A model generated the notes under the pieces. The model saw only the letters and a list, made by a program, of their open reading frames with translations. It did not search any database and was not told the DNA's origin. Positions 20,119-50,641 of a stretch of DNA of 64,000 bases are shown here, piece after piece. Source of the stretch: Escherichia coli (GTDB lineage Bacteria; Pseudomonadota; Gammaproteobacteria; Enterobacterales; Enterobacteriaceae); assembly GCF_041248615.1 (NCBI RefSeq), contig NZ_CP158426.1. The stretch is one strand, 5' to 3'. Position 1 is the stretch's first letter; each line of letters starts with the position of its first letter. Position numbers and translations under genes: made by a program.

Positions 20119-20673
20119 TTATCCTTCGATAAAAGCCATCCCTGTAAATGTCCGTCTCGGGTTGCCACGTTCAATCTGGTGATGGAACATTCGCCGCCGC
20201 GATTTCAGCACCGCGCTATTTTCCTGTTGCTGTTGTTCCAGCGTCCAGGCAATCAGCAATCGCGCCAGCCGCTTGTTAGCATGCCCAGAAACAAGTTTTT
20301 GCGCCCATGATGAGGCCGATACGGACTCGGACAAATCCACTGAATAGTGCCGCACCAACTTTCGCTTAATGCCCATGCGTTATCGCCATCCAGAGAAATC
20401 AGCGCCGAACGCAGCGTGTCAGAGTAGCGGCCCGTTTCTGTTTCCAGCACCGTTACCGCGACGTCTTGCCGGGTAAAAACGACCAACAGAGAATAACGCT
20501 GCGCCAATCGGGTAGCCGCGTCCGGGGTGTAAATCTGGCATCCCTACTACGCGCTGCATGTTGGGTAAATTTGCCGTGGTGTGTAATTGTTGAATCGCTA
20601 AACTCTCGATCCACAGGTCATCAGATGCGATGGTAAATACCGCATCGGATAAGGGACGAATATATTTGCCCAT
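20119..20673 (-). pseudogene. prfH: Decayed prfH (release-factor homologue) and upstream rtcB-like fragment (ykfJ-like)
   Basis: Three overlapping ORFs in different frames; the 5' piece has an RtcB N-terminal motif ([14 protein letters not shown]), the 3' pieces are release-factor-like. Confidence 0.55.
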
Positions 20674-20917
20674 GTATCATTCCATTTATACTCGTCATAC
20701 TTCAAGTTGCATGTACTGCGACTCGAATTATTTAGAGTATATAAATATAAAAATCAGGAAATGGCAGACGAATCCAGGGCAAGAAAAAAGAATTAATCCT
20801 GGAAAGGTCTGCAAAGAGTCATTGATAAAGGATTTGTCATGATTTACCTCCTTGCAGTTTGTGGAATAAGAAAACGCGCACATACCAGGCGGGCGTTATT
20901 TTCATTGCAAGCTGGAT

Positions 20918-23251: not shown

Positions 23252-24175
23252 CTAGCGCGTTCGCTGCGAAAGCACCTGCTGCTTATCCAGCTTTTGCACC
23301 AGCGGCTGCACCACTTTATCCCCATGCTGACCAAAGTATTGATACAGCGTATCGGACGCACTTTTGGTCAGCACCATAATCTCAATGCGTCGGTTGCCCG
23401 CGCTTTGCGGATTTTTGGCATCCAGCAGCATCTGGTCCGCCATTGCGCTTACCTGCATCACTTTATCTTCCGGCATTCCAGCCTCTTCCAGCACCCGACG
23501 GGCCGAAAGCGCGCGATCGCCCGAAAGGTTCCAGTTGTTGTAGATATTGTTTTTGTAGGCCATCGCATCGGTATGCCCGGTGATGATGATCTTATTGTCG
23601 AGCGAATCAAAAACCGGCGCTAACTCCACCAGCAAAGTTTTAAAGAACGGCATAATCTGCGCGCTGCCGCGTTCAAACATATTGCGGTTCTGGTCATCTT
23701 TAATCAGCACGCGCAGTCCCTGGGGAACAATCTCCATCTCCAGATTCGCTTCCATATGCGCATCACGGGCGATGGTGTTGATACTGGTTGCCAGCTCACC
23801 AAGCTCAGTAGCGGATTTCTTCTTCAGCAGCGCCGTTTTCTCATTGACGTCACGCGCTTTTTTCTCCGTCTCTTCCGGCACCGCCACGGTGGCAGGTTTT
23901 GGCGGATGAGACGGGCTGATTTTATTTAACGGCGACAACCCGCCGCCATTGAAAATCGACTGCCCGTGCAGCGCGGCGATAATGCTTTCACGCTCGGATT
24001 TACTGACGCTGTTGACAATCCACAGCGTCATAAACAGCGCCATCATTGCCAAAGTAAAGTCGGCGAACGCCACCTTCCACGCCCCGCCGTGGTGCCCGGC
24101 ATGATTCTTTTTGATCTGCCGCCGGACGATGGTGGTTTTTGCCCCACGCTCGCGGCGGTTGCCCGTCTTTCTCAT
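23252..24175 (-). CDS. lafU: Lateral-flagellar stator protein MotB homologue (OmpA-like C-terminus)
   Basis: TM helix then peptidoglycan-binding domain; start at MRKTG two nt after lafT stop; appears full length (K-12 mbhA is the truncated counterpart). Confidence 0.8.
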   Translation of the reverse strand: MRKTGNRRERGAKTTIVRRQIKKNHAGHHGGAWKVAFADFTLAMMALFMTLWIVNSVSKSERESIIAALHGQSIFNGGGLSPLNKISPSHPPKPATVAVPEETEKKARDVNEKTALLKKKSATELGELATSINTIARDAHMEANLEMEIVPQGLRVLIKDDQNRNMFERGSAQIMPFFKTLLVELAPVFDSLDNKIIITGHTDAMAYKNNIYNNWNLSGDRALSARRVLEEAGMPEDKVMQVSAMADQMLLDAKNPQSAGNRRIEIMVLTKSASDTLYQYFGQHGDKVVQPLVQKLDKQQVLSQRTR

Positions 24176-24177
24176 GC

Positions 24178-25041
24178 TTATTCTTGCTCCAGCATCGCAT
24201 TCACCCACGCGTCGAGGTTGGCGAAGGTCGGTTTGGACGCCAGATGCAGCAGCTTACGCCCGGCGTCCACTGCCAGCAGCGTCGGTTTGCCGCCTGCCTG
24301 CGCCACCAGCACGGTGCGCACGCATTCCAGCAAAGAATGTTCTGCCCGCGCCTGTTGTTCCATGGCGTTGGCGAGCGGGTCCATCAGGCAGTAGCAGATA
24401 AAGACGCCTAAAAACGTCCCCACCAGCGCTGCCGCCACTTTCAGGCCAATCAGTGCGATAGAGCCGTCAATCGACTGCATGGTGATGATGATGCCCAACA
24501 CCGCCGCACAAATGCCAAACCCCGGCATCGCTTCGGCGGTACGTTGCAGCGAGCGCGACGGCGTTAGCAGCGACTCTTCCGCGGTGTCCAGTTCCTGATC
24601 GAGAATGCCTTCCAGTTCATGGGCGTCGATTTTACCCATCGCCATCAGGCGAAAGTTATCGGCAATAAAGGTCACCAGCCGCTTCTGGGTTAACACCAGC
24701 GGGTATTTCTGGAAAATGGTGCTCTCTTCCGGTTGCTCGATATGCTGATCCAGCATGCGCAGGCCGCCGTTTTGCACCATTTCGAGCAACTCATACAGGC
24801 ACATTAATAGCTGACGCTGAAACTCCGGCCCGAGCTGTTTTTTACTGATCACGCCTTTAATTTGATGAGCAATCTCTTTCAGCACATGTTTCGGATTACC
24901 AATAATCATCGCCCCGAAGCCCGCGCCTAAAATAATGATCATTTCCGCCGGTTGCCAGATAGCCACTAATTGCCCGCCCGCTTCAAAATAACCGCCAAAT
25001 ACGCAGCCGAGCACCACCAGTAAACCTAATATTTTTTGCAT
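24178..25041 (-). CDS. lafT: Lateral-flagellar stator protein MotA homologue
   Basis: 287 aa four-TM MotA/TolQ/ExbB family. Confidence 0.85.
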   Translation of the reverse strand: MQKILGLLVVLGCVFGGYFEAGGQLVAIWQPAEMIIILGAGFGAMIIGNPKHVLKEIAHQIKGVISKKQLGPEFQRQLLMCLYELLEMVQNGGLRMLDQHIEQPEESTIFQKYPLVLTQKRLVTFIADNFRLMAMGKIDAHELEGILDQELDTAEESLLTPSRSLQRTAEAMPGFGICAAVLGIIITMQSIDGSIALIGLKVAAALVGTFLGVFICYCLMDPLANAMEQQARAEHSLLECVRTVLVAQAGGKPTLLAVDAGRKLLHLASKPTFANLDAWVNAMLEQE

Positions 25042-29404: not shown

Positions 29405-29420
29405 GGCAAAAGGCGTGCCA
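29405..29420 (-). promoter_or_regulatory. Sigma-54 promoter (-24/-12) for lafB operon
   Basis: Reverse strand TGGCAC-GCCTT-TTGCC, perfect GG-N10-GC spacing, ~32 bp upstream of lafB start. Confidence 0.6.
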
Positions 29421-31878: not shown

Positions 31879-32856
31879 TTACCCCAATAAACTCCTCACC
31901 GTCTGGCTGGAAATTCGCGCCTGACCGTTCACCGCCTGCAATAAAACCTGATAGTTATGATTGGCGCTATCCAGCACGCCGCCGAGATTTTCCGACGCCT
32001 GCACGGCGCTTTCCGTTTGCGGGAAGCGCGACATGCCGTCGATCAACTGCCGCGCCTTTTCCTGCTGTACCGCCATCTGCACACGCTGCTGATTAATGCT
32101 TTCTAACGTCTGAGAAATCCCCGCTCCGCCCTGTTGCAGGCTTTGCACTAAGCGGTCCGCCTGCGACGGTTCGGCAAAGGTTTTTAGTGGCATAAACGCT
32201 GATTTATCACCATCGGTGCGCACGCTTAGGGTGCTTTCAATGTTGGGCCACTGTTTTTCAGTGGTGGAGAAACTTATACCATCGGCGTTTTGATGCATCT
32301 GCACGCCCACGCGGCGCAGGGCGTTGGTCAGCCGCGTTTGATACTGCGCGGCGCTGTCATCCTCAGACAGCATCACCGCCGAAAGCTGAGTCTGCCGCCC
32401 GTCAGAGACGCTGAACATCCGCGTTCCCGGCGTGGGATTGTGTACCAGATTCGCCAGATCCGGCGAGTGAAAGCTCACCCGCGCTTCCCCCTGCAACACT
32501 GGCTGCAACTGGCGGTCCACCGCACCGCCGGAAAGCGCGGTGCGTTTGTCCAGCATCTGCATCAGCGCCGTACTCTGCGCCTGCCCGCCCTTACGCTGGC
32601 TGTGACGGTAATCGAGCAACTGCTGCTCCAGTTGCCCGAGATAATGATCCGCCTGCTGCAACGTGGTGAGCTGGTCGTTAAGCTGCACGCTGTAACGCTG
32701 CGGGCGAGTGGTAATCAGCGGCGAGGCCGGATATTCACTCGCCGTCGCCGGGAGTTTTTGCCGCACCGCCTGAGTGGGCGCAACGGTTGACGACGATACC
32801 GCAGCGCTATGCGCGCCGCCGGTGGTGAGTGACGAAGAAGTAAGTCCGACCTGCAT
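31879..32856 (-). CDS. Flag-2-associated protein of unknown function, co-oriented with flgL homologue
   Basis: 325 aa Gln/Ser-rich, no recognisable enzymatic motif; 16-bp gap to upstream gene. Confidence 0.45.
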   Translation of the reverse strand: MQVGLTSSSLTTGGAHSAAVSSSTVAPTQAVRQKLPATASEYPASPLITTRPQRYSVQLNDQLTTLQQADHYLGQLEQQLLDYRHSQRKGGQAQSTALMQMLDKRTALSGGAVDRQLQPVLQGEARVSFHSPDLANLVHNPTPGTRMFSVSDGRQTQLSAVMLSEDDSAAQYQTRLTNALRRVGVQMHQNADGISFSTTEKQWPNIESTLSVRTDGDKSAFMPLKTFAEPSQADRLVQSLQQGGAGISQTLESINQQRVQMAVQQEKARQLIDGMSRFPQTESAVQASENLGGVLDSANHNYQVLLQAVNGQARISSQTVRSLLG

Positions 32857-33816: not shown

Positions 33817-35193
33817 TTAGCTGCACATTTCCAGCACCGAATCGAAAATCTCGGCCCCGGCGGAAATGACTTTCAGATTGGCTTCATAAATTTGTTGATA
33901 GGTGATCAGGTTAACCGCCTCTTCGTCCATGCTGACGCCGCTGACGCTGCTCTGCTGGTTTTGCGCTGCGGAATAGACATTGGACGCGGCATCGACTTCC
34001 GTCTGGTTTTGCTGGCTGTAAATGCCGATATTGCTGATGATTGACGAGCACGCCTGCCCGACCGTCACGCTGCCGAGGTTGGCTATTTCCAGCGGTTCGG
34101 TGGAGATATTGATCAGCGCCTGGAGGTTGTCGCTGTTGCCGCTTTCGTCCGGCGAACTGGAGAACGCCAGCTCATCGGCGGTGATATCCGGGTTAACGGT
34201 CAGCGGGCCATCGGCGTTGCTGGCGTCATAAATAAACAGCGGCTCGCCGGGGTTACCGTTGAGATCGTAGCCCTGCGCCAGCTGGTTGTTAACCGCATCG
34301 GCGAACTGCGACGCCATACTGTTGATGGTGTCGGTCAGCGGCGTCAGCACGTCGTTTTGATAATCAAACAGTGCGCCTAATGAACCGCCGGTGTCGGTAG
34401 TCATCGTCGAGGTGGTGCCAGCGAAAGTCAGCGACATGGTCGGCGTGCCGTCGGCGTTGGTTTCCAGCGCGATGGTCGAGCTTTGCTGCCCGCTCACCAG
34501 CGGTTGACCGTTTTTCAGGGTAACGTTGTAGTTGCCCTGGTCGTCGATATTGACCTGCACATCCATCATCCCGCTGAGTTCTTCCACCATCTGGTCGCGG
34601 GCGTCGTACAGCGCGGAGGCGTTATCGCCGTTGGCTTCGGCCTGAGCGATTTGCTGGTTATAGCTGGCGATGCCGCTGGTGAGCGTGTTGATTTGCGACA
34701 CCATCGCCTGCTGCTGGCTGATGATTTCCGTGCTTTGCGAGTCGATGTAATCCAGCGTGTTGTCGATACGCAGCGACAGCGCCCCGGCTTCGCTGATCAC
34801 CTGCTCGCGCAGGGCGGAATCATCAGGGCTGGTGGTCGCTTCGTTAAGGGCGGCGAAGAAGTTATCGAACCCGCCGCTCAGGCTGCTGTTATCGTCGCTC
34901 AGTACCGCTTCCAGTTGCGTGAGATACCCCTGCTGGGTGCTGTAATAGCCGTAATCGCTGGCGGCATACCACACCTGATTCACCTGATACTGGTTAGAGA
35001 CGCGGCGAATGCTGTCGACCTGCACGCCGTTACCGGCGCTGTTTGGCGAACCGCCGCTGGCACCGATGGTGCTGATCTCCGCCACCTGACGGGTGTAGCC
35101 CGTGGTCATGGCGTTGGCGGTGTTTTGCGCCGTGACGTTCAGCTCCACCTGCGCGGTTGATGCCCCGCTGTAGCCGATGTTAATCATGTCCAT
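33817..35193 (-). CDS. lfgK: Hook-associated protein FlgK (HAP1) homologue
   Basis: 458 aa, conserved FlgK N-terminus (INIGYSGASTAQVELNVTAQNTANA) and C-terminus. Confidence 0.85.
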   Translation of the reverse strand: MDMINIGYSGASTAQVELNVTAQNTANAMTTGYTRQVAEISTIGASGGSPNSAGNGVQVDSIRRVSNQYQVNQVWYAASDYGYYSTQQGYLTQLEAVLSDDNSSLSGGFDNFFAALNEATTSPDDSALREQVISEAGALSLRIDNTLDYIDSQSTEIISQQQAMVSQINTLTSGIASYNQQIAQAEANGDNASALYDARDQMVEELSGMMDVQVNIDDQGNYNVTLKNGQPLVSGQQSSTIALETNADGTPTMSLTFAGTTSTMTTDTGGSLGALFDYQNDVLTPLTDTINSMASQFADAVNNQLAQGYDLNGNPGEPLFIYDASNADGPLTVNPDITADELAFSSSPDESGNSDNLQALINISTEPLEIANLGSVTVGQACSSIISNIGIYSQQNQTEVDAASNVYSAAQNQQSSVSGVSMDEEAVNLITYQQIYEANLKVISAGAEIFDSVLEMCS

Positions 35194-35269
35194 GTTGGAT
35201 CCTTACCGGTAAATCGTGCCGGTTAAAAGCGGCGTTAGGTTGGGGATTCTTAAGTTCCTTAAACCGGGT

Positions 35270-35351
35270 GCCGGATGCGGCGTGAACGCCTTATCCGGCC
35301 TACATATGGGCGACTCGTAGGCCTGATAAGACGCGCCAGCATCGCATCAGG
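35270..35351. repeat. BIME: two inverted REP elements between lfgJ and lfgK
   Basis: gccggatgcggcgtgaacgccttatccggcctaca and inverted gtaggcctgataagacgcgccagcatcgcatcaggc. Confidence 0.7.
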
Positions 35352-35368
35352 CACCGAACGTCGGAGCC

Positions 35369-35668
35369 TCATTTATGCTTCGGCGATAACTGCTTCACAA
35401 TCATCGCCGCGATCCCAATCCCGTGCTGCTGCGCTAGGGTGTTACACAACTCATCGTCATAAAACCCCTGCATCATGCGCACCGAATCGCTGTTAAATGG
35501 GTTATCTTTCGAATCAAACAACTCGTTGGTTTTACGCATCTCTTTGAGCATGTTGCGTAAAAAAATCGCCTCAAACTGTTCCGCGGCCTGCCTGATATCA
35601 TTGGCCTGAACCTTCGGCCCCATTAACGCATCGCTGCCGTCAATCCCGCCACTGGCATTCACTTTCAT
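35369..35668 (-). CDS. lfgJ: FlgJ-like rod-binding protein (N-terminal domain only)
   Basis: 99 aa with rod-binding motif (AAEQFEAIFLRNMLKEMR); no muramidase domain. Confidence 0.7.
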   Translation of the reverse strand: MKVNASGGIDGSDALMGPKVQANDIRQAAEQFEAIFLRNMLKEMRKTNELFDSKDNPFNSDSVRMMQGFYDDELCNTLAQQHGIGIAAMIVKQLSPKHK

Positions 35669-36783
35669 CAGATCACCTCCAGGTCGGCATCCAGCGCGCC
35701 CGCTTCATGCAGCGCCTGCAAAATCGACATAATGTCGTCCGGCGTCGCGCCTAAACTGTTCAGCGCATTGACCAGCGTTTTCAGGCTGCTCGACTCCGGC
35801 AAACTCACCACGCCAGGGCGCGCATGATTCACCGCGATATTACTCTGCGGCGTTACCGCCGTGCGCCCGCCCGCAAAGGCATTCGGCTGGCTGACGTTGC
35901 TGGTTTCGTTAATCGAAACGGTCAAACTACCGTGCGACACCGCCGCCGCGTGTAGCGCAACGCCATCGCCCATCACCACCGTGCCGGTACGCGAGTTAAA
36001 CACCACGCGAGCGCGGATTTTCTCCGCCTGCACCTGCACATCGTCCAGTTGCGACATAAACGCCACCCGCGCACCGGGGCTGGTAGGCGCGCGCACGGTG
36101 ACGTTGGTGGAACTCTGCGCCGTGGCAATGCCGCCAAACGAGGCGTTGATCGCCGCTGCAATATTATTGGCATCTTTAAACGACGGGCGTTTCAGATTGA
36201 GCGTGATGGTATCGCCCATCTGAAAATCGCTGGGGATCTCACGCTCCACCGTTGCGCCGTTGGGAATTAACCCGGCGGTCGGCGTGTTAACCGTCACGCT
36301 GGAACCGCTGGCCCCGGTGGCGTTCATCCCGCCCACCACCACGCTGCCCTGCGCGAGGGCATAAACTTCGCCATCCGCGCCGTGCAACTGCGTCAGCAAC
36401 AAAGTGCCGCCACGAATACTTTTCGCATCGCCAATCGACGAAACGGTGACATCAATGGTCTGCCCGCGCGAGTACATCGGCGGCAGCGTGGCGCTCACCG
36501 CCACCGCGGCGACGTTTTTCACCTTCGGGTCGATTTTATTCGGCAACTGCACGCCAAACTGGCGCAGCATATTGGTGATGGTCTGGTTAGTGAATTTGAC
36601 CTGGTTTTTATCGCCCGTACCGTCGAGGCCTACCACCAGGCTGTAGCCCACCAGTTGGTTTTCACGCACGCCCTGTACGTTGACCAACGACTCCAGCGAT
36701 TGCGCCAGCGCCACACCGGGCAGCGCCAGGCTTACGGCGATCGCTGCGGCCTTTATCCAGTTTTGCATTGCACTCTCCGGCAT
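35668..36783 (-). CDS. lfgI: P-ring protein FlgI homologue
   Basis: 371 aa, signal peptide, conserved [27 protein letters not shown]. Confidence 0.9.
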
Positions 36784-37530: not shown

Positions 37531-38316
37531 TTACAGCGTCTGGCTGATGTACTGCAACATATCGTCCGCCGCCGACACCATTTTGGCGTTCATCTCGTAA
37601 GCGCGTTGCACCGTAATCATCGCCACCATTTCGTTGACGATATCCACGTTCGAGCCTTCCAGCGCATTGTCCTGCAAGGTGCCAAGCCCATCTTCGCCCG
37701 GTACGCCTTCGGTCGGCTGACCGCTGGCAGCGGTTTCCAGATAGAGGTTGTCGCCTTCAGCGGAAAGCCCCGCCGGGTTGGCGAAGTTCACCAGCGTCAG
37801 TTGCCCTAACTCAGTCACGTCGCTGTCGCCGGGTAAGATCGCTGTCACCGTGCCGTCCTCACCAAACGCAACATTCGTCGCCCCCGCCGGAACGTCGATT
37901 TCCGGCTGTAACGGCAAGCCTTGCGAGTTGGTCAGCACGCCGTCGGCGTTCACCTGCAAGTTGCCGTCGCGGGTATAGGCGATATCGCCGTTGGCCTTTT
38001 GCACCTGCAAAAACCCCTGCCCCATAATGGCGACATTCATCGCGTTGTCGGTGGTTTCGACGTTGCCTTCGGTGAAGGTTTTCTGAGTGCCAACAATGCG
38101 CACGCCGCTACCGAATTGCAGCCCGGTCGGCATGATGTTGTTCTGGTCGAGCATCGCGCCCGGCGCTTCCTGGGTCTGGTAGAACAGATCCTGAAACATC
38201 ACCCGGTCGCGCTTGAAGCCGGTGGTGTTAACGTTGGCGATGTTGTTGGCAATCGCGCTCATTTCAGCATCCTGCGCCGAGAGGCCGGTTTTGCTGATCC
38301 ATAATGCTGCGTTCAT
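37531..38316 (-). CDS. lfgG: Distal rod protein FlgG homologue
   Basis: 261 aa, conserved rod N-terminus (SKTGLSAQDAEMSAIANNIANVNTTGFKRD) and C-terminus. Confidence 0.9.
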   Translation of the reverse strand: MNAALWISKTGLSAQDAEMSAIANNIANVNTTGFKRDRVMFQDLFYQTQEAPGAMLDQNNIMPTGLQFGSGVRIVGTQKTFTEGNVETTDNAMNVAIMGQGFLQVQKANGDIAYTRDGNLQVNADGVLTNSQGLPLQPEIDVPAGATNVAFGEDGTVTAILPGDSDVTELGQLTLVNFANPAGLSAEGDNLYLETAASGQPTEGVPGEDGLGTLQDNALEGSNVDIVNEMVAMITVQRAYEMNAKMVSAADDMLQYISQTL

Positions 38317-38342
38317 GGTGGTTTATTCCCTGGTGTCTGTTA

Positions 38343-39080
38343 TCACGAGCCGCGCAATAAGCGGTTGCCCGCGTCGCTGATATCTTCGGCGGTTTTCATC
38401 ATCTTGATCTGCGCTTCAAACTGGCGGTTCATGGCGATGGACGACATCATCTCGCTCACCGCCGAGACGTTACTGCCCTCCAGAAAACCGCCGCTAACTT
38501 TGATGTTTTCATCACGCTGGGCCGGAACGCCGTCGGCAGTTATCAGCATCCCTTCAGGATTTTTCGCCAGGTTAGCGACAGGAATATCCACCAGCTTCAG
38601 GCGGTCGATATCCATGGTTGCAGTCACGTCGCCGTCATCGGGCGTCACCGACAGCGTGCCGTCGCTGCCAAACGAAGCAATGGCGTTCGGCGGCAGAATG
38701 ATCGGGCCGTTATCCCCCAGCACCAGATTGCCGTCGATGGTCAGTTGCCCCTGGTCGTCCTGCTGAATGTTGCCGTTGCGGGTATACACTTCGTTGCCGT
38801 TTTTATCCTGCACCGCAATGTAACCCGCGCCCTGAATCGCCACGTCCAGCGGGCGTTCGGTTTTCTCCGCTACACCCGTGCTGTCGTTCACGCCGCTGGC
38901 CCCTTCCTGCGCCATATAGCGCGTGTCGAAGCCGCCGCCTTTCACCTTGTCGTTGGTCGCCATCGCCATGTCGGCGCGAAAACCGTTGGTGTTGACGTTC
39001 GCCAGGTTGTTGGCGCTAATCTGCTGCTCGTACAGGGTCTGAGAAGCACCGCTCAGGGCGGTATAAATCAGGCGGTCCAT
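38343..39080 (-). CDS. lfgF: Proximal rod protein FlgF homologue
   Basis: 245 aa rod family. Confidence 0.85.
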   Translation of the reverse strand: MDRLIYTALSGASQTLYEQQISANNLANVNTNGFRADMAMATNDKVKGGGFDTRYMAQEGASGVNDSTGVAEKTERPLDVAIQGAGYIAVQDKNGNEVYTRNGNIQQDDQGQLTIDGNLVLGDNGPIILPPNAIASFGSDGTLSVTPDDGDVTATMDIDRLKLVDIPVANLAKNPEGMLITADGVPAQRDENIKVSGGFLEGSNVSAVSEMMSSIAMNRQFEAQIKMMKTAEDISDAGNRLLRGS

Positions 39081-40282
39081 TACATTGCCTGGAACAGCGC
39101 GTCATCGAGCTGCGTGCTGGTGGCGATAACTTTGGTGTTGGCCTGATAGTTACGCTGGGCGGTCATCAGGTTGACCAGTTCGCTGGTGATATCGACGTTA
39201 GAGCTTTCGAGCACGCCCGACGATAGCGTGCCGCAGGTGCCGGAGCCGGGAACGCCAATCAGCGGGGTGCCGGATTCCCCGGTTTGTACCCACGCGGTGC
39301 CGCTCACCGCTTCGAGTCCGTTTTCATTCGGGAAAGTCGCCAGCACCACCTGGCCCTGCAACATGCGCTCGCCGTTGCTGTAGGTGGCGTAAACTTTGCC
39401 ATCGTCATCGACCTGCACACCGTTTTGCGTTGCGGAGGCGTAGCCGTTGGCGGCGTTGGTGGTGACCGAAAATTCAGAGCCGTATTGCGTACAGGTGGAG
39501 TAATCGACGGTTAAGTCGATGGGTGCGGCGGCGTCGGTCTGAAACTCAATGGTCTGTGGCGTGGTTGGCGAGGTCAGCTTCCCGGTGTTCGGGTCGAAGG
39601 TTAATGTCGTCGCCGGAACGCCAGTCTGCTGCTGACCGTCGAAGGTGTACTGCACTTCCCAGGTGTTGTCGCTGGTTTTGGTGAAATACTGGCATACCGA
39701 GTGTTCGTTACCTAATGAGTCATATACCGTGGTGGTGTAGCTGTCGGTATACGAGCTGCTGTTGGTCGCGTCGAACGGTACGGTTGTACGGTCTATAGCC
39801 GCATCGCTGGCATCGAAGTTAGCGGTAAAGGTCAGGCTGCTGCTGGCCTGCGCCGGGATATTGCCGGTTTTGATCTGGATATCGGTGACCGTACCGGTTT
39901 GCAGAGTGCCCGTGTCATCGACCGGATAACCCTGTAAATAAGCGCCCGAGGCGTTGACAATATAGCCGTTTTTGTCGGTTTCAAACGATCCGGCGCGGGT
40001 ATAAGAAATGTTGCCCGCGCTGTCGCAGGTAACAAAAAAGCCGTCGTTGTTAATCGCCAGATCCAGCGCGTTACCGGTGGAGACCAGCGAACCGCCGCGC
40101 GAAATACTTTGCGCGGTGCCTGCCACGCTGACGCCCATCGCCTGACTTCCGGCATACATGGCTGAAAACTGGGTGGTCATCGACTTATAGCCTACCGTTC
40201 CGGCGTTGGCGATGTTGTTACTGATCCCGTCGAGCTGTTCGTTAACGGCATTCAGCCCCGTTGCGGCAATTTCATAACTCAT
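39080..40282 (-). CDS. lfgE: Hook protein FlgE homologue
   Basis: 400 aa, conserved hook termini. Confidence 0.85.
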   Translation of the reverse strand: MSYEIAATGLNAVNEQLDGISNNIANAGTVGYKSMTTQFSAMYAGSQAMGVSVAGTAQSISRGGSLVSTGNALDLAINNDGFFVTCDSAGNISYTRAGSFETDKNGYIVNASGAYLQGYPVDDTGTLQTGTVTDIQIKTGNIPAQASSSLTFTANFDASDAAIDRTTVPFDATNSSSYTDSYTTTVYDSLGNEHSVCQYFTKTSDNTWEVQYTFDGQQQTGVPATTLTFDPNTGKLTSPTTPQTIEFQTDAAAPIDLTVDYSTCTQYGSEFSVTTNAANGYASATQNGVQVDDDGKVYATYSNGERMLQGQVVLATFPNENGLEAVSGTAWVQTGESGTPLIGVPGSGTCGTLSSGVLESSNVDITSELVNLMTAQRNYQANTKVIATSTQLDDALFQAM

Positions 40283-40328
40283 TGTTTCTTCCTGTTAATT
40301 CAAATTTTGACAGCGTGCCCGTTGTTTT

Positions 40329-40409
40329 GCCGGATGCGGCGTGAACGCCTTATCCGGCCTACAAAACCATGCAGTTTCATGTAGGCCTGATAAGCGAAGC
40401 GCATCAGGC
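40329..40409. repeat. BIME: two inverted REP elements between lfgD and lfgE; first unit identical to the one at 35270
   Basis: gccggatgcggcgtgaacgccttatccggcctaca ... gtaggcctgataagcgaagcgcatcaggc. Confidence 0.7.
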
Positions 40410-40425
40410 AATTTGGCACCGGACA

Positions 40426-41139
40426 TCACGCCACATCACTGTCGGCATCGGGTACGCCAAACTGGCTAATCATGGTGAACGGCACTTCGCCCACGCCTGC
40501 AACATTGAGCACCGGAGAGCTGCCGTCGAGCGGGATGCGCACATCTTCCACTTCGCCGGAGACTTCAATCGGCACCTCTTCTTCCCCGGTGTTGGTGACC
40601 ACCGAGACGTCGTAATCGCCCGGCGGGATACCGTAATCCGCCGGATTAATCGAGAAATCGACCTGGCCTGGCCCGACGGACGAACTGCCTTCCGGGATCA
40701 GCGACACCGTATAGTCATCGCCTGCGGCATCGGTAAAGTGGAGATCGGCGGTGGTACAGGCGTCGTCAAGCGTGGCGCGACCATTAATGGTCTGGTCGCT
40801 CACCTGCAAGGCGGTGGTCTGCACCATAATGTCGTCACCCACCAGGTTGCCGAGCGCCATCACCTGAATGTTGCTCATCAGCACCGCGTTGGTGTTGGCC
40901 TGCACACTCATCTCTTCCATCATCGCCACCTGCGCCATCGAAGAAAGCTGGTCGATATATTCGGTGGCGTCAGTCGGGTCGGTCGGGTCCTGGTTTTGGA
41001 TCTCAGCGACAAACAGCGTCAGGAAAGTATCAACGGGCGAGCTATCGCTGCTACTTTGCGTGTCGCTGGCCGCCACGTTGTTGCTTTCCGCCGTGGCGGT
41101 CGGCTGCGGCGATTGCGCATTCAGCGCCAGGGTATTCAT
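40426..41139 (-). CDS. lfgD: Hook capping/scaffold protein FlgD homologue
   Basis: 237 aa, conserved TFLTLFVAEIQNQDPTDP. Confidence 0.8.
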   Translation of the reverse strand: MNTLALNAQSPQPTATAESNNVAASDTQSSSDSSPVDTFLTLFVAEIQNQDPTDPTDATEYIDQLSSMAQVAMMEEMSVQANTNAVLMSNIQVMALGNLVGDDIMVQTTALQVSDQTINGRATLDDACTTADLHFTDAAGDDYTVSLIPEGSSSVGPGQVDFSINPADYGIPPGDYDVSVVTNTGEEEVPIEVSGEVEDVRIPLDGSSPVLNVAGVGEVPFTMISQFGVPDADSDVA

Positions 41140-41570
41140 CAGGCTTCTCCCAGTTTCAGCAGGCTTTGCTGCATACTTTTCACGTTGTTGAGCACATCGA
41201 CATTGGTTTCAAAATCGCGCGAGGCCGACATCATGTCCGCCATCTGTTCCACCACGTTGACGTCGGGATACCAGACATCCCCGTTAGCATCGGCGAGCGG
41301 CGAATGCGGTTCATAGCGTTTCACCGCCCCGCCGGTTTGCAGCACGTCCTGCACCTGCACGCTGGCACCATCAATGGCATGGCGATGCGTTCCCGCCAGC
41401 AAGCTGTGGTGATACACCGCCGCAAACACCGGGCTGCGCGCTTTATACGCCTGCGCCTCGCTGCCGGCAGGTGCATTGGCATTCGCCAGGTTACTGGCAA
41501 CGGTATTCAGACGTAGCGTTTGCGCCGTCATCGCCGAGCCGGAAATCTGATAGATATCAGTAAATGACAT
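41139..41570 (-). CDS. lfgC: Proximal rod protein FlgC homologue (intact)
   Basis: 143 aa, conserved rod termini. Confidence 0.85.
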   Translation of the reverse strand: MSFTDIYQISGSAMTAQTLRLNTVASNLANANAPAGSEAQAYKARSPVFAAVYHHSLLAGTHRHAIDGASVQVQDVLQTGGAVKRYEPHSPLADANGDVWYPDVNVVEQMADMMSASRDFETNVDVLNNVKSMQQSLLKLGEA

Positions 41571-41572
41571 GC

Positions 41573-41908
41573 TTATTTCCCTTCAATGGCCTCTCTGATG
41601 CCGCTGATTTGCAGATTCAGAAAGGTCAGACTGCTTTGATAATCCATACTATTTTGTGAAAACCGCGCCTGTTCGCTGTTTAGTTCCACGGTGTTGCCAT
41701 CTTCCGACGGCTGCATCGGCACGCGGTACTGGACATCCACCGCCGCGTTATTTGCCCGTTGCATCTCCCTGGCAAAATCAATATCTTTAGCCTTGAAATT
41801 TGGCGTATCGACGTTCGCCAGATTCGCAGTCAGTAGCTCGGTCCTCTCAAGACGTAACTTCACTGCCTGCGGATGCACTCCCAATGCCTGTTGAAAACTG
41901 ATCCCCAT
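41573..41908 (-). CDS. lfgB: Proximal rod protein FlgB homologue (start at internal Met MGISFQQ)
   Basis: Rod N-terminal motif LTANLANVDTPNFKAKD; ORF-track start would place the start codon inside the sigma-54 promoter footprint. Confidence 0.8.
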   Translation of the reverse strand: MGISFQQALGVHPQAVKLRLERTELLTANLANVDTPNFKAKDIDFAREMQRANNAAVDVQYRVPMQPSEDGNTVELNSEQARFSQNSMDYQSSLTFLNLQISGIREAIEGK

Positions 41909-41945
41909 TTCCTGCGTCACTCCTGCTTCAATCCGCATACGCTAA

Positions 41946-41960
41946 GCAATCGCCGTGCCA
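41946..41960 (-). promoter_or_regulatory. Sigma-54 promoter for lfgB-L operon
   Basis: Reverse strand TGGCAC-GGCGA-TTGC, perfect consensus. Confidence 0.6.
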
Positions 41961-42914: not shown

Positions 42915-44339
42915 ATGTCTGAATTTGAATTGCTCGTGAAAGATCTTCTTTTAAAATCAGAAGAAGACGAGAAAAAGCGACAAGAAAAAGATCGAGAATT
43001 AATTTCAAAGGTTCTTGAAATCTATGATCAAAAATATGTTGCAGAACTCCTACGAAAAGTAGGAAAAAATGAATGGAGCAGAGAAACACTTAACCGTTGG
43101 ATAAATGGTAAGTGTAACCCTAAACAATTAACTTCTGCTGAGGAAACTTTACTTCGAAAGATGCTCCCAGAACCTCCCGAACATCATCCTAACTATACAT
43201 TTCGTTTTATTGATTTATTCGCAGGGATTGGTGGTATTCGTAAAGGCTTCGAAAATATTGGTGGGCAGTGTGTTTTTACTAGCGAATGGAATAAAGAAGC
43301 GGTAAGAACCTACAAAGCTAATTGGTTTAATGATGAACTAAATCATAAATTTAATCTTGATATACGAGAAGTCACTTTAAGTGATAGAGATGATGTTTCC
43401 GAAATGGAAGCCTATAATCATATAGACAAAAATATTCCAGATCATGATGTCCTTCTGGCCGGTTTTCCATGTCAACCCTTTAGTCTGGCTGGGGTAAGCA
43501 AGAAAAATTCTCTGGGGCGTGCACATGGTTTTGAATGTGAGGCACAAGGAACACTATTTTTTGATGTCGCTCGAATTATTAAATCAAAAAAACCAGCTAT
43601 TTTTGTGCTTGAGAATGTGAAGAACCTTAAAAGTCATGATAAAGGTAAGACTTTTAAAGTCATCATGGAAACACTCAATGAATTAGGGTATGAAGTCGCC
43701 GATGCTGGTGTGACTGGCTCAGATGATCCTAAAATTATAGATGGAAAACATTTTTTACCCCAACATCGTGAGCGTATAGTGTTGGTAGGATTTCGTAGGG
43801 ATCTAAATATTCACAAGGATTTCACGTTACGAAATATTAACCGCTTTTACCCTCAAAACAGGCCAACATTTGGTGAATTATTAGATCATGATGTTGACGA
43901 CAAATATATTTTGACTCCAAGGTTATGGGAATATCTTTACAATTATGCAAAAAAACATGCAGCAAAAGGAAATGGATTTGGTTTTGGTTTAGTGGATCCT
44001 AAAAATCCAGATAGTATCGCACGAACGCTGTCTGCTCGTTACCATAAAGATGGCTCTGAAATACTGATCGATCGTGGCTGGGATAAGGCTGTCGGTGAAA
44101 TCGATTTTAGTAATCCAGCGAATCAAGAGAATCGACCAAGAAGACTGACACCTCATGAATGTGCCAGGTTAATGGGTTTTGAAAAACCAGGGGGAAGACC
44201 TTTTAGAATACCTGTATCAGATACTCAAGCTTATAGACAATTTGGGAACTCAGTTGTTGTGCCAGTATTTGAAGCTGTAGCAAGATTACTAGAACCGTAC
44301 ATACAAAAGGCTGTCAGCATGCAAGTTATTAACGATTAA
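42915..44339 (+). CDS. DNA cytosine-5 methyltransferase, M.EcoRII/Dcm family (predicted CCWGG specificity)
   Basis: Motif I FAGIGG, motif [10 protein letters not shown], motif VI ENV; near full-length match to recalled M.EcoRII/Dcm; AT-rich. Confidence 0.9.
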
Positions 44340-44363
44340 TAATAATTAACTTTCACTATTGTG

Positions 44364-44386
44364 AGGCCTTTTTTATTAAAGGCCTC
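44364..44386. terminator. Bidirectional hairpin between convergent methylase and endonuclease genes
   Basis: gaggcc-ttttttattaaa-ggcctc. Confidence 0.55.
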
Positions 44387-44426
44387 TAAATATATAATCA
44401 TAAGTTATTATAAGTATACTTTTATA

Positions 44427-45632
44427 TTATACAAAATCTTCATACAGCGTTATTAACTGTGTGATAAAACCCTCTAACGTTAATAATCCCTCCCTGATTT
44501 CCTCCGGATATTTTTTATGAAGAGGGGAAGGTACAACCAAGGTGACACCTTCAGCTCTCATTTCGTTAAATTGAGCAACTGAGACACCCTCTTGTAAGGT
44601 AAACAAATATATTTTGTTGATTTTATTTGCTTCATTGAGTGCCTGACGCCACCGATCCTTACATGTTGTTTTTACAGCAAGCATACGGAGTTTTTCTCTT
44701 GGAAAGTGATCATCATGGTAAGCTGCCGCTGATGGAAAAAGAAAATCGGGTTTCTTTTTTCCTTCAGTAATACATTGAGTAGCAAAATGATGCAGTCCAT
44801 GCTCAATAAAAATTTGCTCAAGATGTAGCTCCAGTGATTTCCCGGCTCGAGATTTTCTTCGATTACTAACAGAGTTAGCCATAGCTATAAAATCATCTAC
44901 AGAACCAAACCCTTGACGGATGATGTCCAGTACGTGAATTTCTTCAACCATTAGAAAGAGATCATATTCAATACGGCGGCGTTCTAAAAGTTGGTCATCT
45001 GGACTGGTTACGCCTGTTGGGTAATAACCCGCAGCATATTGAATAATCTCTAAGCCAGAAGGAAAGCTATGTTTCCAGCTTTCCGGAATAACATATTCCT
45101 TTTGAGAGATTTTTGGCCTTGATGCGAGTACACCAAGTATTTCACTGGCAGGCCCAAACATTAAAGTTCCAGGAATGATCTCCCCAATAGCTGATTCCAG
45201 TACATCCTCTTCTTCTGGGCTAACACAAACCCATACATCAACACTTTTGCTGTCTCTCCCTGGCTCATGTTCAAACGCAAGCACAGACAAAGCACCTGTA
45301 TTTTCCGGATCCTGTAGGGGACTGCCAGCCCCCCACCGAGTGATGCGTTTTTCATTTCTTGTTTGCCCGAAATACTTATTATTGTAGTAAATAGCGCGAA
45401 CCTCACTGTCTACACATTCATGAGAGGAATAAGTTGCGCGCAATAAAACCGAAGGATTTTTTTCTGACGTATGATCTATAGATGGGAAAAGTTCAGCGAC
45501 GATACCAGAAGGGATATATACCCCCACTTGATGCCCTCCTGTTGCACCAGTGTCGTTTGCTGAAAGACGTTTAATATAGAGATAGTTGTTACCACCGACC
45601 TTATCAAGCAGCCAATCTTGTAATCCTGACAT
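44427..45632 (-). CDS. Type IIE restriction endonuclease, EcoRII family
   Basis: 401 aa; N-terminus YIKRLSANDTGATGGHQVG and catalytic domain match recalled R.EcoRII closely. Confidence 0.9.
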   Translation of the reverse strand: MSGLQDWLLDKVGGNNYLYIKRLSANDTGATGGHQVGVYIPSGIVAELFPSIDHTSEKNPSVLLRATYSSHECVDSEVRAIYYNNKYFGQTRNEKRITRWGAGSPLQDPENTGALSVLAFEHEPGRDSKSVDVWVCVSPEEEDVLESAIGEIIPGTLMFGPASEILGVLASRPKISQKEYVIPESWKHSFPSGLEIIQYAAGYYPTGVTSPDDQLLERRRIEYDLFLMVEEIHVLDIIRQGFGSVDDFIAMANSVSNRRKSRAGKSLELHLEQIFIEHGLHHFATQCITEGKKKPDFLFPSAAAYHDDHFPREKLRMLAVKTTCKDRWRQALNEANKINKIYLFTLQEGVSVAQFNEMRAEGVTLVVPSPLHKKYPEEIREGLLTLEGFITQLITLYEDFV

Positions 45633-46597: not shown

Positions 46598-46613
46598 CGG
46601 CACGCTTATTGCA
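46598..46613 (+). promoter_or_regulatory. Sigma-54 promoter upstream of the unknown 311-aa gene and transferase gene
   Basis: CGGCAC-GCTTA-TTGCA with correct GG-N10-GC spacing; lies inside the ORF-track N-terminus, implying the real start is at 46648. Confidence 0.5.
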
Positions 46614-46647
46614 CATTCCGCAAAGTAATAAAGACTGGAAGCCACCT

Positions 46648-47580
46648 ATGAGTTTTATTGAATGTTACGAACCGGAATACGTGCGCAATTTTATGACGCA
46701 ATATCCCGATTCGCCTTTGTACATCCGCAAGGTGTGGAAAAACGAGATTCGCCAGAGCCTGATGCTGACAGAGCCAGAAAGCTGCGAAGCGGTGCTCAAC
46801 GATGCCAGGGCCTTTGATTTACAGCTCACCTACCGCCCGGCGGAAGATAATGCCGCAGAACTCTCCGCGCGCGATGCGATAGTAAACCAGGTCATTTTGA
46901 GCACCCTTACGCTCCCCGATTTACCCCCGGAGCTTTCACTGTACGCCGTCGGGATTTTGCTCTCCCGCGCCAGCAAAATGCCGGGCAGAGACGGAGATAT
47001 TCTTGCCCGCTTGACGACGCTGCCACAGGCGCTGGCCGATCATGCACAAAAAGGCACGCTACAGGCACAGTTCGCCCAGCTGCCGCCCGTGCCACAGCTG
47101 GCGCGCCAGTTGATGACGCTGCTCGGCAGTTGTGCGTTTGACTGGTCGATTCTGCCGGAAAGCCCGCGCAAAACTTCGCTGCCGTTGCAGATGCCTTTGC
47201 TGGCGCTACATGACGCCAACAGCGAAGCCCTGTTACAACAGCAGCTTCAGGCACAGTGGCAAACCACCTGGCAACAGCATTTTGCCACCGCGCCCTGGAT
47301 GATGCGTAACTGGCTGATTTACCGCGTTTACCATGAGGTGATTGGGCAGGCAGACGGAGCAGATTATTGCCCGCTGGTGTGCGATTTTTATCTTATCCGC
47401 ACGTTAATCAGTTTATGGACGCTGGATGGTTCTCCGCTGCGACAGGAGGATATTTTCGCCCTCTTTGCCATGTTTGAACGCTGGCGAGCCAGTGAAAATG
47501 CTGTGCTGATTCGCCAACAAATTCAGGCTGAACGTTCCGCAGATCCCCTGCTTTATGCGTTTTCACTGCTGTCTTGCTAA
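46648..47580 (+). CDS. Hypothetical protein (311 aa), no recognisable domain; start at MSFIECYEPE
   Basis: ORF with RBS ggaag 7 nt upstream; sits between flgN homologue and the large transferase gene. Confidence 0.5.
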   Translation: MSFIECYEPEYVRNFMTQYPDSPLYIRKVWKNEIRQSLMLTEPESCEAVLNDARAFDLQLTYRPAEDNAAELSARDAIVNQVILSTLTLPDLPPELSLYAVGILLSRASKMPGRDGDILARLTTLPQALADHAQKGTLQAQFAQLPPVPQLARQLMTLLGSCAFDWSILPESPRKTSLPLQMPLLALHDANSEALLQQQLQAQWQTTWQQHFATAPWMMRNWLIYRVYHEVIGQADGADYCPLVCDFYLIRTLISLWTLDGSPLRQEDIFALFAMFERWRASENAVLIRQQIQAERSADPLLYAFSLLSC

Positions 47581-47626
47581 CGCTTTTTGGCCGGTTTTCC
47601 CGGCCTTATCGACTTCGTAAACTATC

Positions 47627-50092: not shown

Positions 50093-50106
50093 AATTCGAT
50101 TTTTTA

Positions 50107-50144
50107 AACATGTCGTTGGAATACGTTTATGCCATCGACATGTT
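50107..50144. terminator. Hairpin between convergent transferase gene and tagD-like gene
   Basis: aacatgtcg ... cgacatgtt 9-bp stem. Confidence 0.45.
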
Positions 50145-50236
50145 TTAGGGATATGTCGAAAAAACGCGATTATTTAAACATATTTAACATAGCCAAACGG
50201 CAGACGGCATCATCTTCTCTCACTACGGGAATTAAA

Positions 50237-50641
50237 TCAGTAGGTGGCTGATTTACCCCTAATCACCTCAATAATCCCCGTCGTCGATACCGACGGCGTA
50301 CGGGGAAAATAGACCACCTCACAGACACACGAGAAATCGTCAAACTTCCCTGCCCAGTCATCACCCATCACTAAAATATCCGCACCGTACCCCCGCAAAT
50401 ACTCCGCTTTCTGCTCCAGCGATTCCTCCAGAAATACGCCATCCACGCACGCCAGCCCGGCGATAATCGCCATGCGGTCATCCTGATGGTAAACCGGTGC
50501 CCTGCCCTTTTTGGCGATGTTCAGGGCGTCGGACGATACGCCGACCAGCAGCCGCTCGCCCAGCTTGCGGGCGCGTTGTAAAAGGCGCAGATGACCGACG
50601 TGAAACACATCGAAGGTGCCGAAGGTGATGACCGTTTTCAT
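50237..50641 (-). CDS. Glycerol-3-phosphate cytidylyltransferase (TagD-like), makes CDP-glycerol
   Basis: FGTFDVFHVGHLRLL (HxGH) and RTPSVSTTGI motifs; start at MKTVITFG two nt after lfiJ stop. Confidence 0.8.
   Translation of the reverse strand: MKTVITFGTFDVFHVGHLRLLQRARKLGERLLVGVSSDALNIAKKGRAPVYHQDDRMAIIAGLACVDGVFLEESLEQKAEYLRGYGADILVMGDDWAGKFDDFSCVCEVVYFPRTPSVSTTGIIEVIRGKSATY

What the first reader, a model, noticed from the sequence alone, without database searches (positions are those of the whole stretch)
35369..35668. FlgJ homologue is a rod-binding domain only, with no peptidoglycan hydrolase in the cluster
The FlgJ-like protein is only 99 aa and lacks the C-terminal muramidase domain found in enteric FlgJ. 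I found no lytic transglycosylase or muramidase gene elsewhere in the 40-kb cluster, so rod penetration of the cell wall would depend on an enzyme encoded elsewhere, possibly shared with the primary flagellar system.
Basis: inference. Interest (0 to 1): 0.25.

Follow-up and report, generated by a model that had tools for sequence, protein, structure and literature searches.

The report
Short FlgJ; wall-cutting gene next door
The second flagellar system of E. coli has a FlgJ protein that is only a rod cap with no cell-wall-cutting half, which is a known arrangement, but a secreted cell-wall peptidase gene (yafL) that sits just past the cluster and is cut off by the window edge travels with this flagellar island in many genera and is the best candidate for the missing enzyme.

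Summary
The window is the Flag-2 (lateral-type) flagellar island of E. coli NRZ14408. LfgJ (35369-35668, minus strand) is 99 aa and has only a Rod-binding domain. None of the 44 proteins from lafU to lfhA has a glycosidase, SLT, amidase or NlpC/P60 domain, and no glucosaminidase remnant exists in the window.

The short form is not a truncation. It is conserved at 95-132 aa across Enterobacterales flag-2 loci, and RefSeq already calls it "rod-binding protein". Single-domain FlgJ is a known kind.

The title claim of "no peptidoglycan hydrolase" is only partly right. Ninety-seven bp beyond lfhA lies yafL, a secreted C40/NlpC-P60 peptidoglycan endopeptidase gene, of which the window holds only the last 64 codons.

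Its orthologues abut lfhA in seven genera with five different outer flanks. In Tatumella and in one unnamed enterobacterium the gene directly follows lafT-lafU on the same strand. None of about 78 other flhA loci has such a gene within 10 kb.

Tatumella lacks flag-1 yet is reported motile, so borrowing the primary FlgJ is not required.

YafL as Flag-2's wall-remodelling enzyme is a new hypothesis that rests on gene context only.

The parts
35369..35668 (-). lfgJ: single-domain FlgJ homologue (rod-binding protein, 99 aa)
   Evidence: Pfam PF10135 E 3e-14, no other domain. RefSeq WP_001589748.1 'rod-binding protein'. 35% identical to residues 30-102 of flag-1 FlgJ. Orthologues of 95-132 aa occur across Enterobacterales.
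35194..35368 (.). lfgJ-lfgK spacer filled with REP-type palindromes; holds no coding remnant of a hydrolase domain
   Evidence: Sequence read. No glucosaminidase similarity. Tatumella has no spacer here.
35668..36783 (-). lfgI (P-ring); its stop codon overlaps the lfgJ start
   Evidence: Pfam FlgI E 7e-134. Coordinates.
33817..35193 (-). lfgK (hook-associated protein 1), downstream of lfgJ
   Evidence: Pfam FlgK_D1 E 1e-64.
37531..41938 (-). lfgB, C, D, E, F, G: the rod and hook genes whose products LfgJ would cap
   Evidence: Pfam Flg_bb_rod, Flg_bbr_C, FlgD and FlgE_D2. Exact sigma-54 consensus at 41946-41960 upstream of lfgB.
31879..32856 (-). lafW: conserved flag-2 protein with no Pfam hit; predicted flagellin-like fold, not a hydrolase
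   Evidence: AlphaFold2 model from 32 homologues, pLDDT above 80 for residues 55-275. Best Foldseek PDB matches are flagellins (4nx9, E 6e-7).
23252..25041 (-). lafT-lafU (MotA/MotB-type stator). In Tatumella and in locus L096 the yafL orthologue follows lafU directly
   Evidence: Pfam MotA_N, MotA_ExbB, MotB_plug, OmpA. Operon link shown.
29406..29420 (-). Exact sigma-54 promoter consensus upstream of lafB, at the head of the lafB...lafU gene run
   Evidence: TGGCACGCCTTTTGC with 0 mismatches.
61615..63708 (+). lfhA (FlhA), the last gene of the cluster as usually defined; convergent with yafL
   Evidence: NCBIfam TIGR01398 E 1e-232; annotation.
63806..64000 (-). 3' end (last 64 codons) of yafL, a secreted C40/NlpC-P60 peptidoglycan endopeptidase; the gene runs to 64555, outside the window
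   Evidence: NCBIfam NlpC/P60 matches on the fragment. Full gene read in L002 8352-9101: Pfam NLPC_P60 E 3e-33. Cys147 and His202 conserved. PDB relatives are NlpC/P60 wall hydrolases. Linked to flag-2 in other genera.

Best explanation
LfgJ is a genuine single-domain FlgJ. It is exported through the Flag-2 type III apparatus, and its Rod-binding domain caps and scaffolds the growing LfgB/C/F/G rod. It has no catalytic part.

The enzyme that opens the wall is encoded separately. The best candidate is YafL, a Sec-exported C40/NlpC-P60 peptidoglycan endopeptidase. Its gene belongs to the flag-2 island, at the ring junction lafU > yafL > < lfhA.

YafL would cut peptide stems or cross-links around the nascent basal body. 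That would let the rod and P-ring pass, or let the LafT/LafU stator engage the wall. It would replace the GH73 glucosaminidase half of enteric FlgJ and play the part that SltF, PleA or BB0259 play for other single-domain FlgJ proteins.

Shown here: the domain content of LfgJ and of every cluster protein, and the gene linkage of yafL. Inferred: the rod-cap role (by homology) and any role of YafL in flagellar assembly (by gene context only).
For: LfgJ has a Rod-binding domain only, is conserved in length and sequence in many genera, and sits between lfgI and lfgK everywhere examined.

No hydrolase domain is found in 44 cluster proteins. LafW, which has no Pfam hit, is predicted flagellin-like.

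yafL abuts lfhA in E. coli, E. albertii and Citrobacter, Dryocola, Superficieibacter, Kluyvera and Atlantibacter. The outer flank differs between genera: dpaA, LacI/PTS, a fimbrial operon, nqr, or PDDEXK_4.

In locus L096 yafL lies inside the cluster, 6 bp after lafU on the same strand and facing lfhA. In Tatumella ptyseos its start overlaps the lafU stop.

The Tatumella protein groups with the YafL clade and away from E. coli MepH in 87 of 100 NJ bootstraps.

None of about 78 non-flag-2 flhA loci has a YafL-like gene within 10 kb.

The named hits at 50% identity or more among the 120 best come from flag-2-bearing genera or genera with flag-2 remnants. None is named Salmonella, Klebsiella or Enterobacter cloacae. 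Thirteen share a contig with LfgJ or LafW hits.

The catalytic Cys and His and a signal peptide are conserved. The closest solved relatives are NlpC/P60 wall hydrolases, including those of Tn916-like conjugative elements.

The lafB...lafU run has an exact sigma-54 promoter consensus, so an operonic yafL would be expressed along with the basal-body genes.

Tatumella, Budvicia and Pragia lack flag-1 but are reported motile (PMC6993521).
Against: There is no experiment. The link is by gene context only.

In E. coli yafL is a separate convergent gene with no sigma-54 or sigma-28 consensus upstream.

yafL is intact in 5385 of 5426 complete E. coli genomes, while the lfgK-lfgG stretch is present in only 1245. 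Its dN/dS is about 0.03. It may therefore have a role independent of Flag-2. This test is weak, because the same alleles occur in strains with and without Flag-2.

The Leminorella orthologue is not within 6 kb of flagellar genes.

Known partners of single-domain FlgJ proteins cleave glycan strands, not peptides. An endopeptidase alone may not open a hole of the size needed.

The operon position next to the stator genes fits a stator-related role as well as a rod-related one.

Only about ten genera were sampled.
Confidence: 0.5

Rival explanations
1. Housekeeping wall enzymes open the wall for the Flag-2 rod. These would be the lytic transglycosylases Slt70, MltA-G and EmtA, or the endopeptidases MepS, MepM and MepH. 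They might be recruited by LfgJ or the rod proteins. The position of yafL next to the island would then be a historical accident or serve another purpose.
For: No glycan-cleaving enzyme is encoded in or beside the island.

E. coli has many redundant lytic transglycosylases (PMC10139938 abstract). Other single-domain FlgJ systems use SLT-type enzymes (PMC7277832; PMC8517470).

yafL is retained under purifying selection in strains that have deleted Flag-2.

From my own knowledge: Salmonella FlgJ lacking its C-terminal half still allows weak motility (Hirano et al. 2001).
Against: It does not explain why yafL stays next to lfhA or lafU through at least six different chromosomal contexts, nor why it is coupled to lafU in two lineages.
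Confidence: 0.3
2. YafL serves the stator rather than the rod. It would trim the wall so that the OmpA-like domain of LafU can bind around the basal body. Rod passage would then rely on other enzymes.
For: yafL is the gene immediately after lafT-lafU, and is translationally coupled to lafU in Tatumella. LafU has an OmpA-type wall-binding domain.
Against: In most genera sampled yafL is separated from lafU by the whole cluster. No stator system is known to me to need a C40 peptidase.
Confidence: 0.15
3. This is the first reader's idea: the glucosaminidase domain of the primary FlgJ acts in trans on Flag-2 rods.
For: The same genome encodes a full-length flag-1 FlgJ with a Glucosaminidase domain (E 8.5e-35).
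Against: Flag-2-only taxa with the same short LfgJ are reported motile (PMC6993521; Tatumella cluster).

The two rod-binding domains are only 35% identical.

FlgJ acts while attached to its own rod tip (established for Salmonella; my own knowledge).
Confidence: 0.05
4. lfgJ is a decayed, truncated remnant in a non-functional island.
For: Flag-2 is deleted in most E. coli strains, and strain 042 carries a frameshift (PMC6993521).
Against: The length and the Rod-binding motif are conserved down to 58% identity across genera. No pseudogene is annotated in this strain's cluster. There is no remnant of a lost domain. The same short form occurs in Tatumella, which is motile with flag-2 only.
Confidence: 0.03

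Closest known systems
Single-domain FlgJ with a separate flagellar lytic transglycosylase (Rhodobacter sphaeroides Fla1 FlgJ with SltF; Borrelia burgdorferi FlgJ with BB0259)
   Same: The FlgJ is a Rod-binding domain only. It is encoded in the flgG-L gene run, and wall cleavage is delegated to a separately exported protein (PMC7277832; PMC8517470).
   Different: No SLT-domain gene lies in or beside Flag-2. The linked enzyme is a C40/NlpC-P60 cysteine endopeptidase, which cuts peptides rather than glycan strands. It sits at the lafU/lfhA junction and not in the flgG operon. No interaction with LfgJ has been shown.
Dual-domain FlgJ of enteric flag-1 (Salmonella and E. coli FlgJ, TIGR02541)
   Same: The N-terminal Rod-binding domain is homologous (35% identity) and the gene holds the same position between flgI and flgK.
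   Different: It lacks the whole C-terminal GH73 glucosaminidase domain (99 aa against 313 aa). It scores 67.9 bits against a family cut-off of 193.
Lateral-flagellar LfgJ of Vibrio parahaemolyticus (VPA0272) and Plesiomonas shigelloides (FlgJL, 328 aa)
   Same: It belongs to the same type of secondary (lateral) flagellar cluster with the same gene order (PMC4481668).
   Different: Those proteins are listed as 328-aa peptidoglycan hydrolases, the length of a dual-domain FlgJ. No C40 gene appears among the 37 listed Plesiomonas cluster genes. I did not hold their sequences.
NlpC/P60 endopeptidases MepH (YdhO) and MepS (Spr) of E. coli, and the NlpC/P60 wall hydrolases of Tn916-like conjugative elements
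   Same: YafL shares the catalytic domain. It is about 50% identical to MepH and 36% to MepS, with Cys and His aligned. The conjugative-element enzymes are a precedent for a C40 enzyme serving a machine that spans the cell envelope (my own knowledge).
   Different: YafL forms its own clade, has a distinct conserved N-terminal region, and has a flag-2-linked distribution. No growth or vesiculation phenotype is reported for it in K-12 (PMC4475382; PMC9238320).

Membership tests
Dual-domain FlgJ (flagellar assembly peptidoglycan hydrolase, TIGR02541) | N-terminal Rod-binding domain (PF10135) | tested here: met
   E 3.2e-14, residues 42-93.
Dual-domain FlgJ (flagellar assembly peptidoglycan hydrolase, TIGR02541) | C-terminal GH73 glucosaminidase domain (PF01832) | tested here: not met
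   The protein ends at residue 99 and has no PF01832 hit. There is no remnant downstream or elsewhere in the window. The flag-1 FlgJ of the same genome has the domain.
Dual-domain FlgJ (flagellar assembly peptidoglycan hydrolase, TIGR02541) | Score at or above the curated NCBIfam cut-off | tested here: not met
   67.9 bits against a cut-off of 193.
Single-domain FlgJ (rod-binding protein) | A Rod-binding domain as the only domain, in a protein of about 100-190 aa | tested here: met
   Orthologues are 95-132 aa.
Single-domain FlgJ (rod-binding protein) | Encoded between flgI and flgK in the rod/hook operon | tested here: met
Single-domain FlgJ (rod-binding protein) | Acts as rod cap or scaffold and is exported by the flagellar type III system | not testable with these tools
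   Inferred from homology to the N-terminal half of Salmonella FlgJ.
FlgJ with SltF-type partner system | An SLT-domain lytic transglycosylase encoded in the flagellar cluster | tested here: not met
   No SLT domain in 44 cluster proteins, nor in the Tatumella cluster.
C40 / NlpC-P60 peptidoglycan endopeptidases (for YafL) | NLPC_P60 domain above the Pfam threshold | tested here: met
   114.3 bits against a cut-off of 23.
C40 / NlpC-P60 peptidoglycan endopeptidases (for YafL) | Catalytic Cys and His in register with MepS Cys94 and His145 (precursor numbering) | tested here: met
   Cys147 and His202 are invariant in 8 orthologues. The third triad position is Glu or Gln instead of His.
C40 / NlpC-P60 peptidoglycan endopeptidases (for YafL) | Peptidoglycan-cleaving activity and its bond specificity | not testable with these tools
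   No biochemical data on YafL were found.
Flag-2 island (Enterobacterales secondary flagellar locus) | The marker genes lafK, lafW and lafZ together with the lfh, lfi, lfg and laf clusters | tested here: met
   Markers as defined in PMC6993521.
Flag-2 island (whether yafL is a member) | Stays next to flag-2 genes whatever the chromosomal flank | tested here: met
   9 of 10 genera sampled, with at least six different outer contexts, two of them operonic with lafU. The sample is small.
Flag-2 island (whether yafL is a member) | Expressed under the flagellar regulators LafK (with sigma-54) or LafS | tested here: inconclusive
   No consensus promoter lies upstream of E. coli yafL. Operon position in Tatumella and L096 implies co-expression. 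No expression data are available.

The most novel reading that the evidence does not exclude
YafL, an E. coli K-12 gene with no assigned function, is the dedicated wall-opening enzyme of the Flag-2 flagellar system. A Sec-exported C40 cysteine endopeptidase would stand in for the glycosidase half of FlgJ. This would be the first flagellar system shown to breach or remodel peptidoglycan with a peptide-cleaving NlpC/P60 enzyme. In K-12, yafL would then be the only intact gene left from the deleted island.
Probability: 0.4. Interest if true: 0.6.

Novelty: new variant of a known kind. Interest (0 to 1): 0.45.

Why it matters
On its own, the short LfgJ is ordinary. Single-domain FlgJ proteins are well known, and RefSeq already names this one correctly.

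What the follow-up adds is a concrete, cheap-to-test hypothesis for two open points. The first is how a gamma-proteobacterial flagellar system with a cap-only FlgJ gets its rod and rings through the wall. The second is what the uncharacterised E. coli wall hydrolase YafL is for.

If YafL serves Flag-2, the set of enzymes known to open the wall for flagella would grow from glycan-cutting enzymes to include a peptide-cutting C40 enzyme. The accepted boundary of the Flag-2 island would also move by one gene.

Tried and rejected
1. LafW as a hidden hydrolase. It has no Pfam, NCBIfam, PHROG or PDB sequence hit. The AlphaFold2 model matches flagellins. Rejected.

2. A decayed glucosaminidase domain after lfgJ or elsewhere. 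tblastn with 54 C-terminal domains and an HMM found nothing.

3. Other cluster proteins left unnamed. The VR1 protein is weakly FliB-like. LafZ and the VR1 genes are absent from Tatumella, so they cannot be core enzymes.

4. I first dismissed yafL as a chromosomal flank gene, because Tatumella has no such gene after lfhA. I reversed this when the Tatumella orthologue turned up after lafU and other genera showed different outer flanks.

5. The single genome-contig scan, run with LfhA, was swamped by primary-system FlhA. It gave only three useful loci, but it served as a negative control.

6. The plasmid search with Tatumella YafL returned mislabelled E. coli chromosome pieces and MepH.

7. The promoter search upstream of E. 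coli yafL found no sigma-54 or sigma-28 consensus.

8. dN/dS of yafL in strains that have deleted Flag-2, as a test of dependence on Flag-2. This was uninformative, because alleles are shared between strains with and without Flag-2.

9. An apparent 790-bp insertion in other strains was an artefact of joined BLAST pieces.

10. Ren et al. 2005 and Garcia-Ramos et al. 2018 are not in the held library.

Full report
**What the window is.** The region around the finding is 100% identical to the chromosome of E. coli NRZ14408 (NZ_LT599825.1). It is the Flag-2 secondary, lateral-type flagellar island, running from lafU (window 23252) to lfhA (ending at 63708). It lies between dinB on one side and yafL and dpaA on the other. 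No gene of the cluster is flagged as a pseudogene in this strain. The lfgK-lfgG stretch is present in 1245 of 5426 complete E. coli genomes.

**Checking the observation.** The ORF at 35369-35668 on the minus strand encodes 99 aa. Its ATG shares one base with the lfgI stop codon. It ends 175 bp before lfgK, and that spacer is filled with REP-type palindromes.
- Pfam finds one domain, Rod-binding PF10135 (E 3.2e-14, residues 42-93).
- NCBIfam's full-length FlgJ model scores 67.9 bits against a cut-off of 193.
- The same genome encodes the primary FlgJ (313 aa, Rod-binding plus Glucosaminidase).
- LfgJ aligns to residues 30-102 of that protein at 35% identity and stops where its linker begins.

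I scanned all 44 proteins between lafU and lfhA with Pfam or NCBIfam. None has an SLT, glucosaminidase, amidase, LysM or NlpC/P60 domain. A tblastn search with 54 FlgJ C-terminal domains, and an HMM built from them, found no remnant in any frame of the window. The largest spacer between genes is 485 bp. So the description of the protein and of the cluster interior is correct.

- LafW (31879-32856) has no sequence-family hit. An AlphaFold2 model built on 32 homologues is confident over residues 55-275 and matches flagellins best (4nx9, E 6e-7). It is an axial-type protein, not an enzyme.
- The 323-aa variable-region protein is weakly similar to the flagellin lysine methylase FliB.
- Its neighbours are a GT2 glycosyltransferase and a cytidylyltransferase.
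- LafZ is a ToxR-like regulator. It and the variable-region genes are missing from the Tatumella cluster.

**The short form is not a truncation.** Homologues of 95-132 aa that carry only the Rod-binding domain occur in Citrobacter, Leclercia, Scandinavium, Dryocola, Buttiauxella, Pseudescherichia, Enterobacter ludwigii and Tatumella. They range from 97% down to about 45% identity. In Tatumella and in an unnamed metagenomic relative the gene holds the same place between flgI and flgK, with no hydrolase gene nearby.

Single-domain FlgJ is a described kind. Dual-domain FlgJ is typical of beta- and gamma-proteobacteria, while other groups pair a cap-only FlgJ with a separate lytic enzyme such as SltF or BB0259 (PMC7277832; PMC8517470). 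The lateral systems of Plesiomonas and Vibrio parahaemolyticus are listed with a 328-aa LfgJ annotated as a peptidoglycan hydrolase (PMC4481668). Both forms therefore exist among lateral-type clusters. I could not resolve which is ancestral.

**The gene at the window's edge.** Ninety-seven bp beyond the lfhA stop, on the opposite strand, lies yafL. It occupies window 63806-64555, so only its last 64 codons are inside the window. Even that fragment matches NlpC/P60 models.
- The full protein (249 aa) has an NLPC_P60 domain (E 3e-33) and an N-terminal signal peptide.
- Cys147 and His202 are in register with the catalytic residues of MepS.
- Its closest solved relatives are NlpC/P60 wall hydrolases, including LytE, MepS and the hydrolases of Tn916-like conjugative elements.

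**Does yafL belong to the island?** I first took it for a flanking core gene, because Tatumella has no such gene after lfhA. The comparative picture says otherwise.
- Orthologues at 55-93% identity, conserved along their whole length, abut lfhA in E. albertii and Citrobacter werkmanii.
- They also abut lfhA in Dryocola, Superficieibacter, Kluyvera and an Atlantibacter-like contig.
- The gene on the far side of yafL differs from genus to genus: dpaA, LacI/PTS, a fimbrial usher operon, nqr, or a PDDEXK_4 gene.
- In Kluyvera and Atlantibacter only the K-12-like lfhA'-lafU' deletion scar remains, yet yafL is still there.
- In locus L096 (an unnamed enterobacterium) yafL lies inside the cluster. 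It starts 6 bp after lafU on the same strand and faces lfhA.
- In Tatumella ptyseos the C40 gene's start overlaps the lafU stop, which is the arrangement expected for translational coupling.
- That Tatumella protein groups with the YafL clade, and not with the sister paralogue MepH, in 87 of 100 NJ bootstraps.

All three layouts are circular permutations of one gene ring, lafT-lafU-yafL followed by a convergent lfhA.

As a control, none of about 78 other flhA loci from diverse proteobacteria has a YafL-like gene within 10 kb. These include the Aeromonas caviae lateral and polar loci.

Among the 120 best YafL homologues (50% identity or more), the named ones come from genera with flag-2 or a flag-2 remnant. 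None is named Salmonella or Klebsiella. Thirteen share a contig with LfgJ or LafW hits.

The one exception seen is Leminorella, whose orthologue is not within 6 kb of flagellar genes.

The held literature does not connect YafL with Flag-2. The main comparative paper on flag-2 mentions neither yafL nor peptidoglycan.

The idea that the primary system's FlgJ is borrowed is possible in E. coli, since the gene is present. It is not required, however. De Maayer et al. report that Tatumella ptyseos, Budvicia and Pragia lack flag-1, carry flag-2 and are described as motile (PMC6993521). I confirmed that the Tatumella cluster has the same cap-only LfgJ and no glycosidase.

**Most likely mechanism.** LfgJ is the rod cap and scaffold of Flag-2 (by homology). 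Wall opening is done by a separate, Sec-exported enzyme. The island-linked C40 endopeptidase YafL is the best candidate. It would act either on rod and P-ring passage or on stator engagement.

An exact sigma-54 promoter consensus heads the lafB...lafU run in E. coli. Where yafL is operonic, it would therefore be made together with the basal-body genes.

**Cautions.**
- The link rests on gene context only.
- E. coli yafL has no recognisable flagellar promoter.
- yafL is intact in 5385 of 5426 E. coli genomes, although most have deleted Flag-2. Its dN/dS is about 0.03, so it may also have a Flag-2-independent role. This test is weak, because identical alleles occur in strains with and without Flag-2.
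- An endopeptidase differs in chemistry from every known flagellar wall-opening enzyme.
- Housekeeping lytic transglycosylases remain a serious rival.

**Verdict.** The title claim is only partly right, because a peptidoglycan hydrolase gene adjoins the island and appears to belong to it. The short LfgJ is a known kind and is already correctly annotated. The yafL linkage is, as far as I could find, undescribed. It makes this a new variant of the "cap-only FlgJ plus separate enzyme" arrangement and can be tested with one knockout.

Noticed in passing
window 42915-45632: An EcoRII-type restriction-modification pair (a Dcm-like C5 methyltransferase on the plus strand and an EcoRII endonuclease on the minus strand) is inserted between lfgA and lfgM inside the flagellar island. 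Only 28 of 5426 complete E. coli genomes carry it.
   Followed up: partly
L002 8352-9101; L101 3713-4462; L106 2823-3572: The yafL alleles of E. coli are unusually deep. dS is 0.25-0.41 in the mature region, against 0.07-0.12 for the neighbouring dpaA, yafJ, gmhA and dinB, and dN/dS is about 0.03. There are two unrelated signal-peptide versions. The same alleles are shared by strains with and without Flag-2.
   Followed up: partly
window 29406-29420 and 41946-41960 (minus strand): Exact sigma-54 promoter consensus (TGGCAC-N5-TTGC) lies upstream of lafB and lfgB. This fits LafK-dependent expression of these operons.
   Followed up: no
window 31879-32856: LafW, a flag-2 marker protein with no family assignment, is predicted to have a flagellin-like fold with disordered ends.
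   Followed up: yes
L093 6801-7016; L095 6759-7067; L096 6724-6927: A small ORF (67-102 aa) with a hydrophobic C-terminus lies between yafL and lfhA in Dryocola, Kluyvera and L096. The copies are weakly similar to each other. E. coli has none, having only a 97-bp gap there.
   Followed up: partly
window 35194-35368: REP-type palindromes fill the lfgJ-lfgK spacer. Tatumella has no spacer at this junction.
   Followed up: no
window 46609-50674: The variable region between lfgN and lfiJ encodes a weakly FliB-like methylase, an 821-aa GT2 glycosyltransferase and a cytidylyltransferase. These are probably flagellin-modification genes.
   Followed up: partly
Plesiomonas shigelloides lateral cluster (PMC4481668, Table 4): LafU is listed as 455 aa, about 140 aa longer than E. 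coli LafU. The nature of the extra part is unknown, and I did not hold the sequence.
   Followed up: no
window about 20100-20700: RefSeq annotates prfH and rtcB here as truncated or frameshifted pseudogenes. The same genes are intact in CFT073.
   Followed up: no
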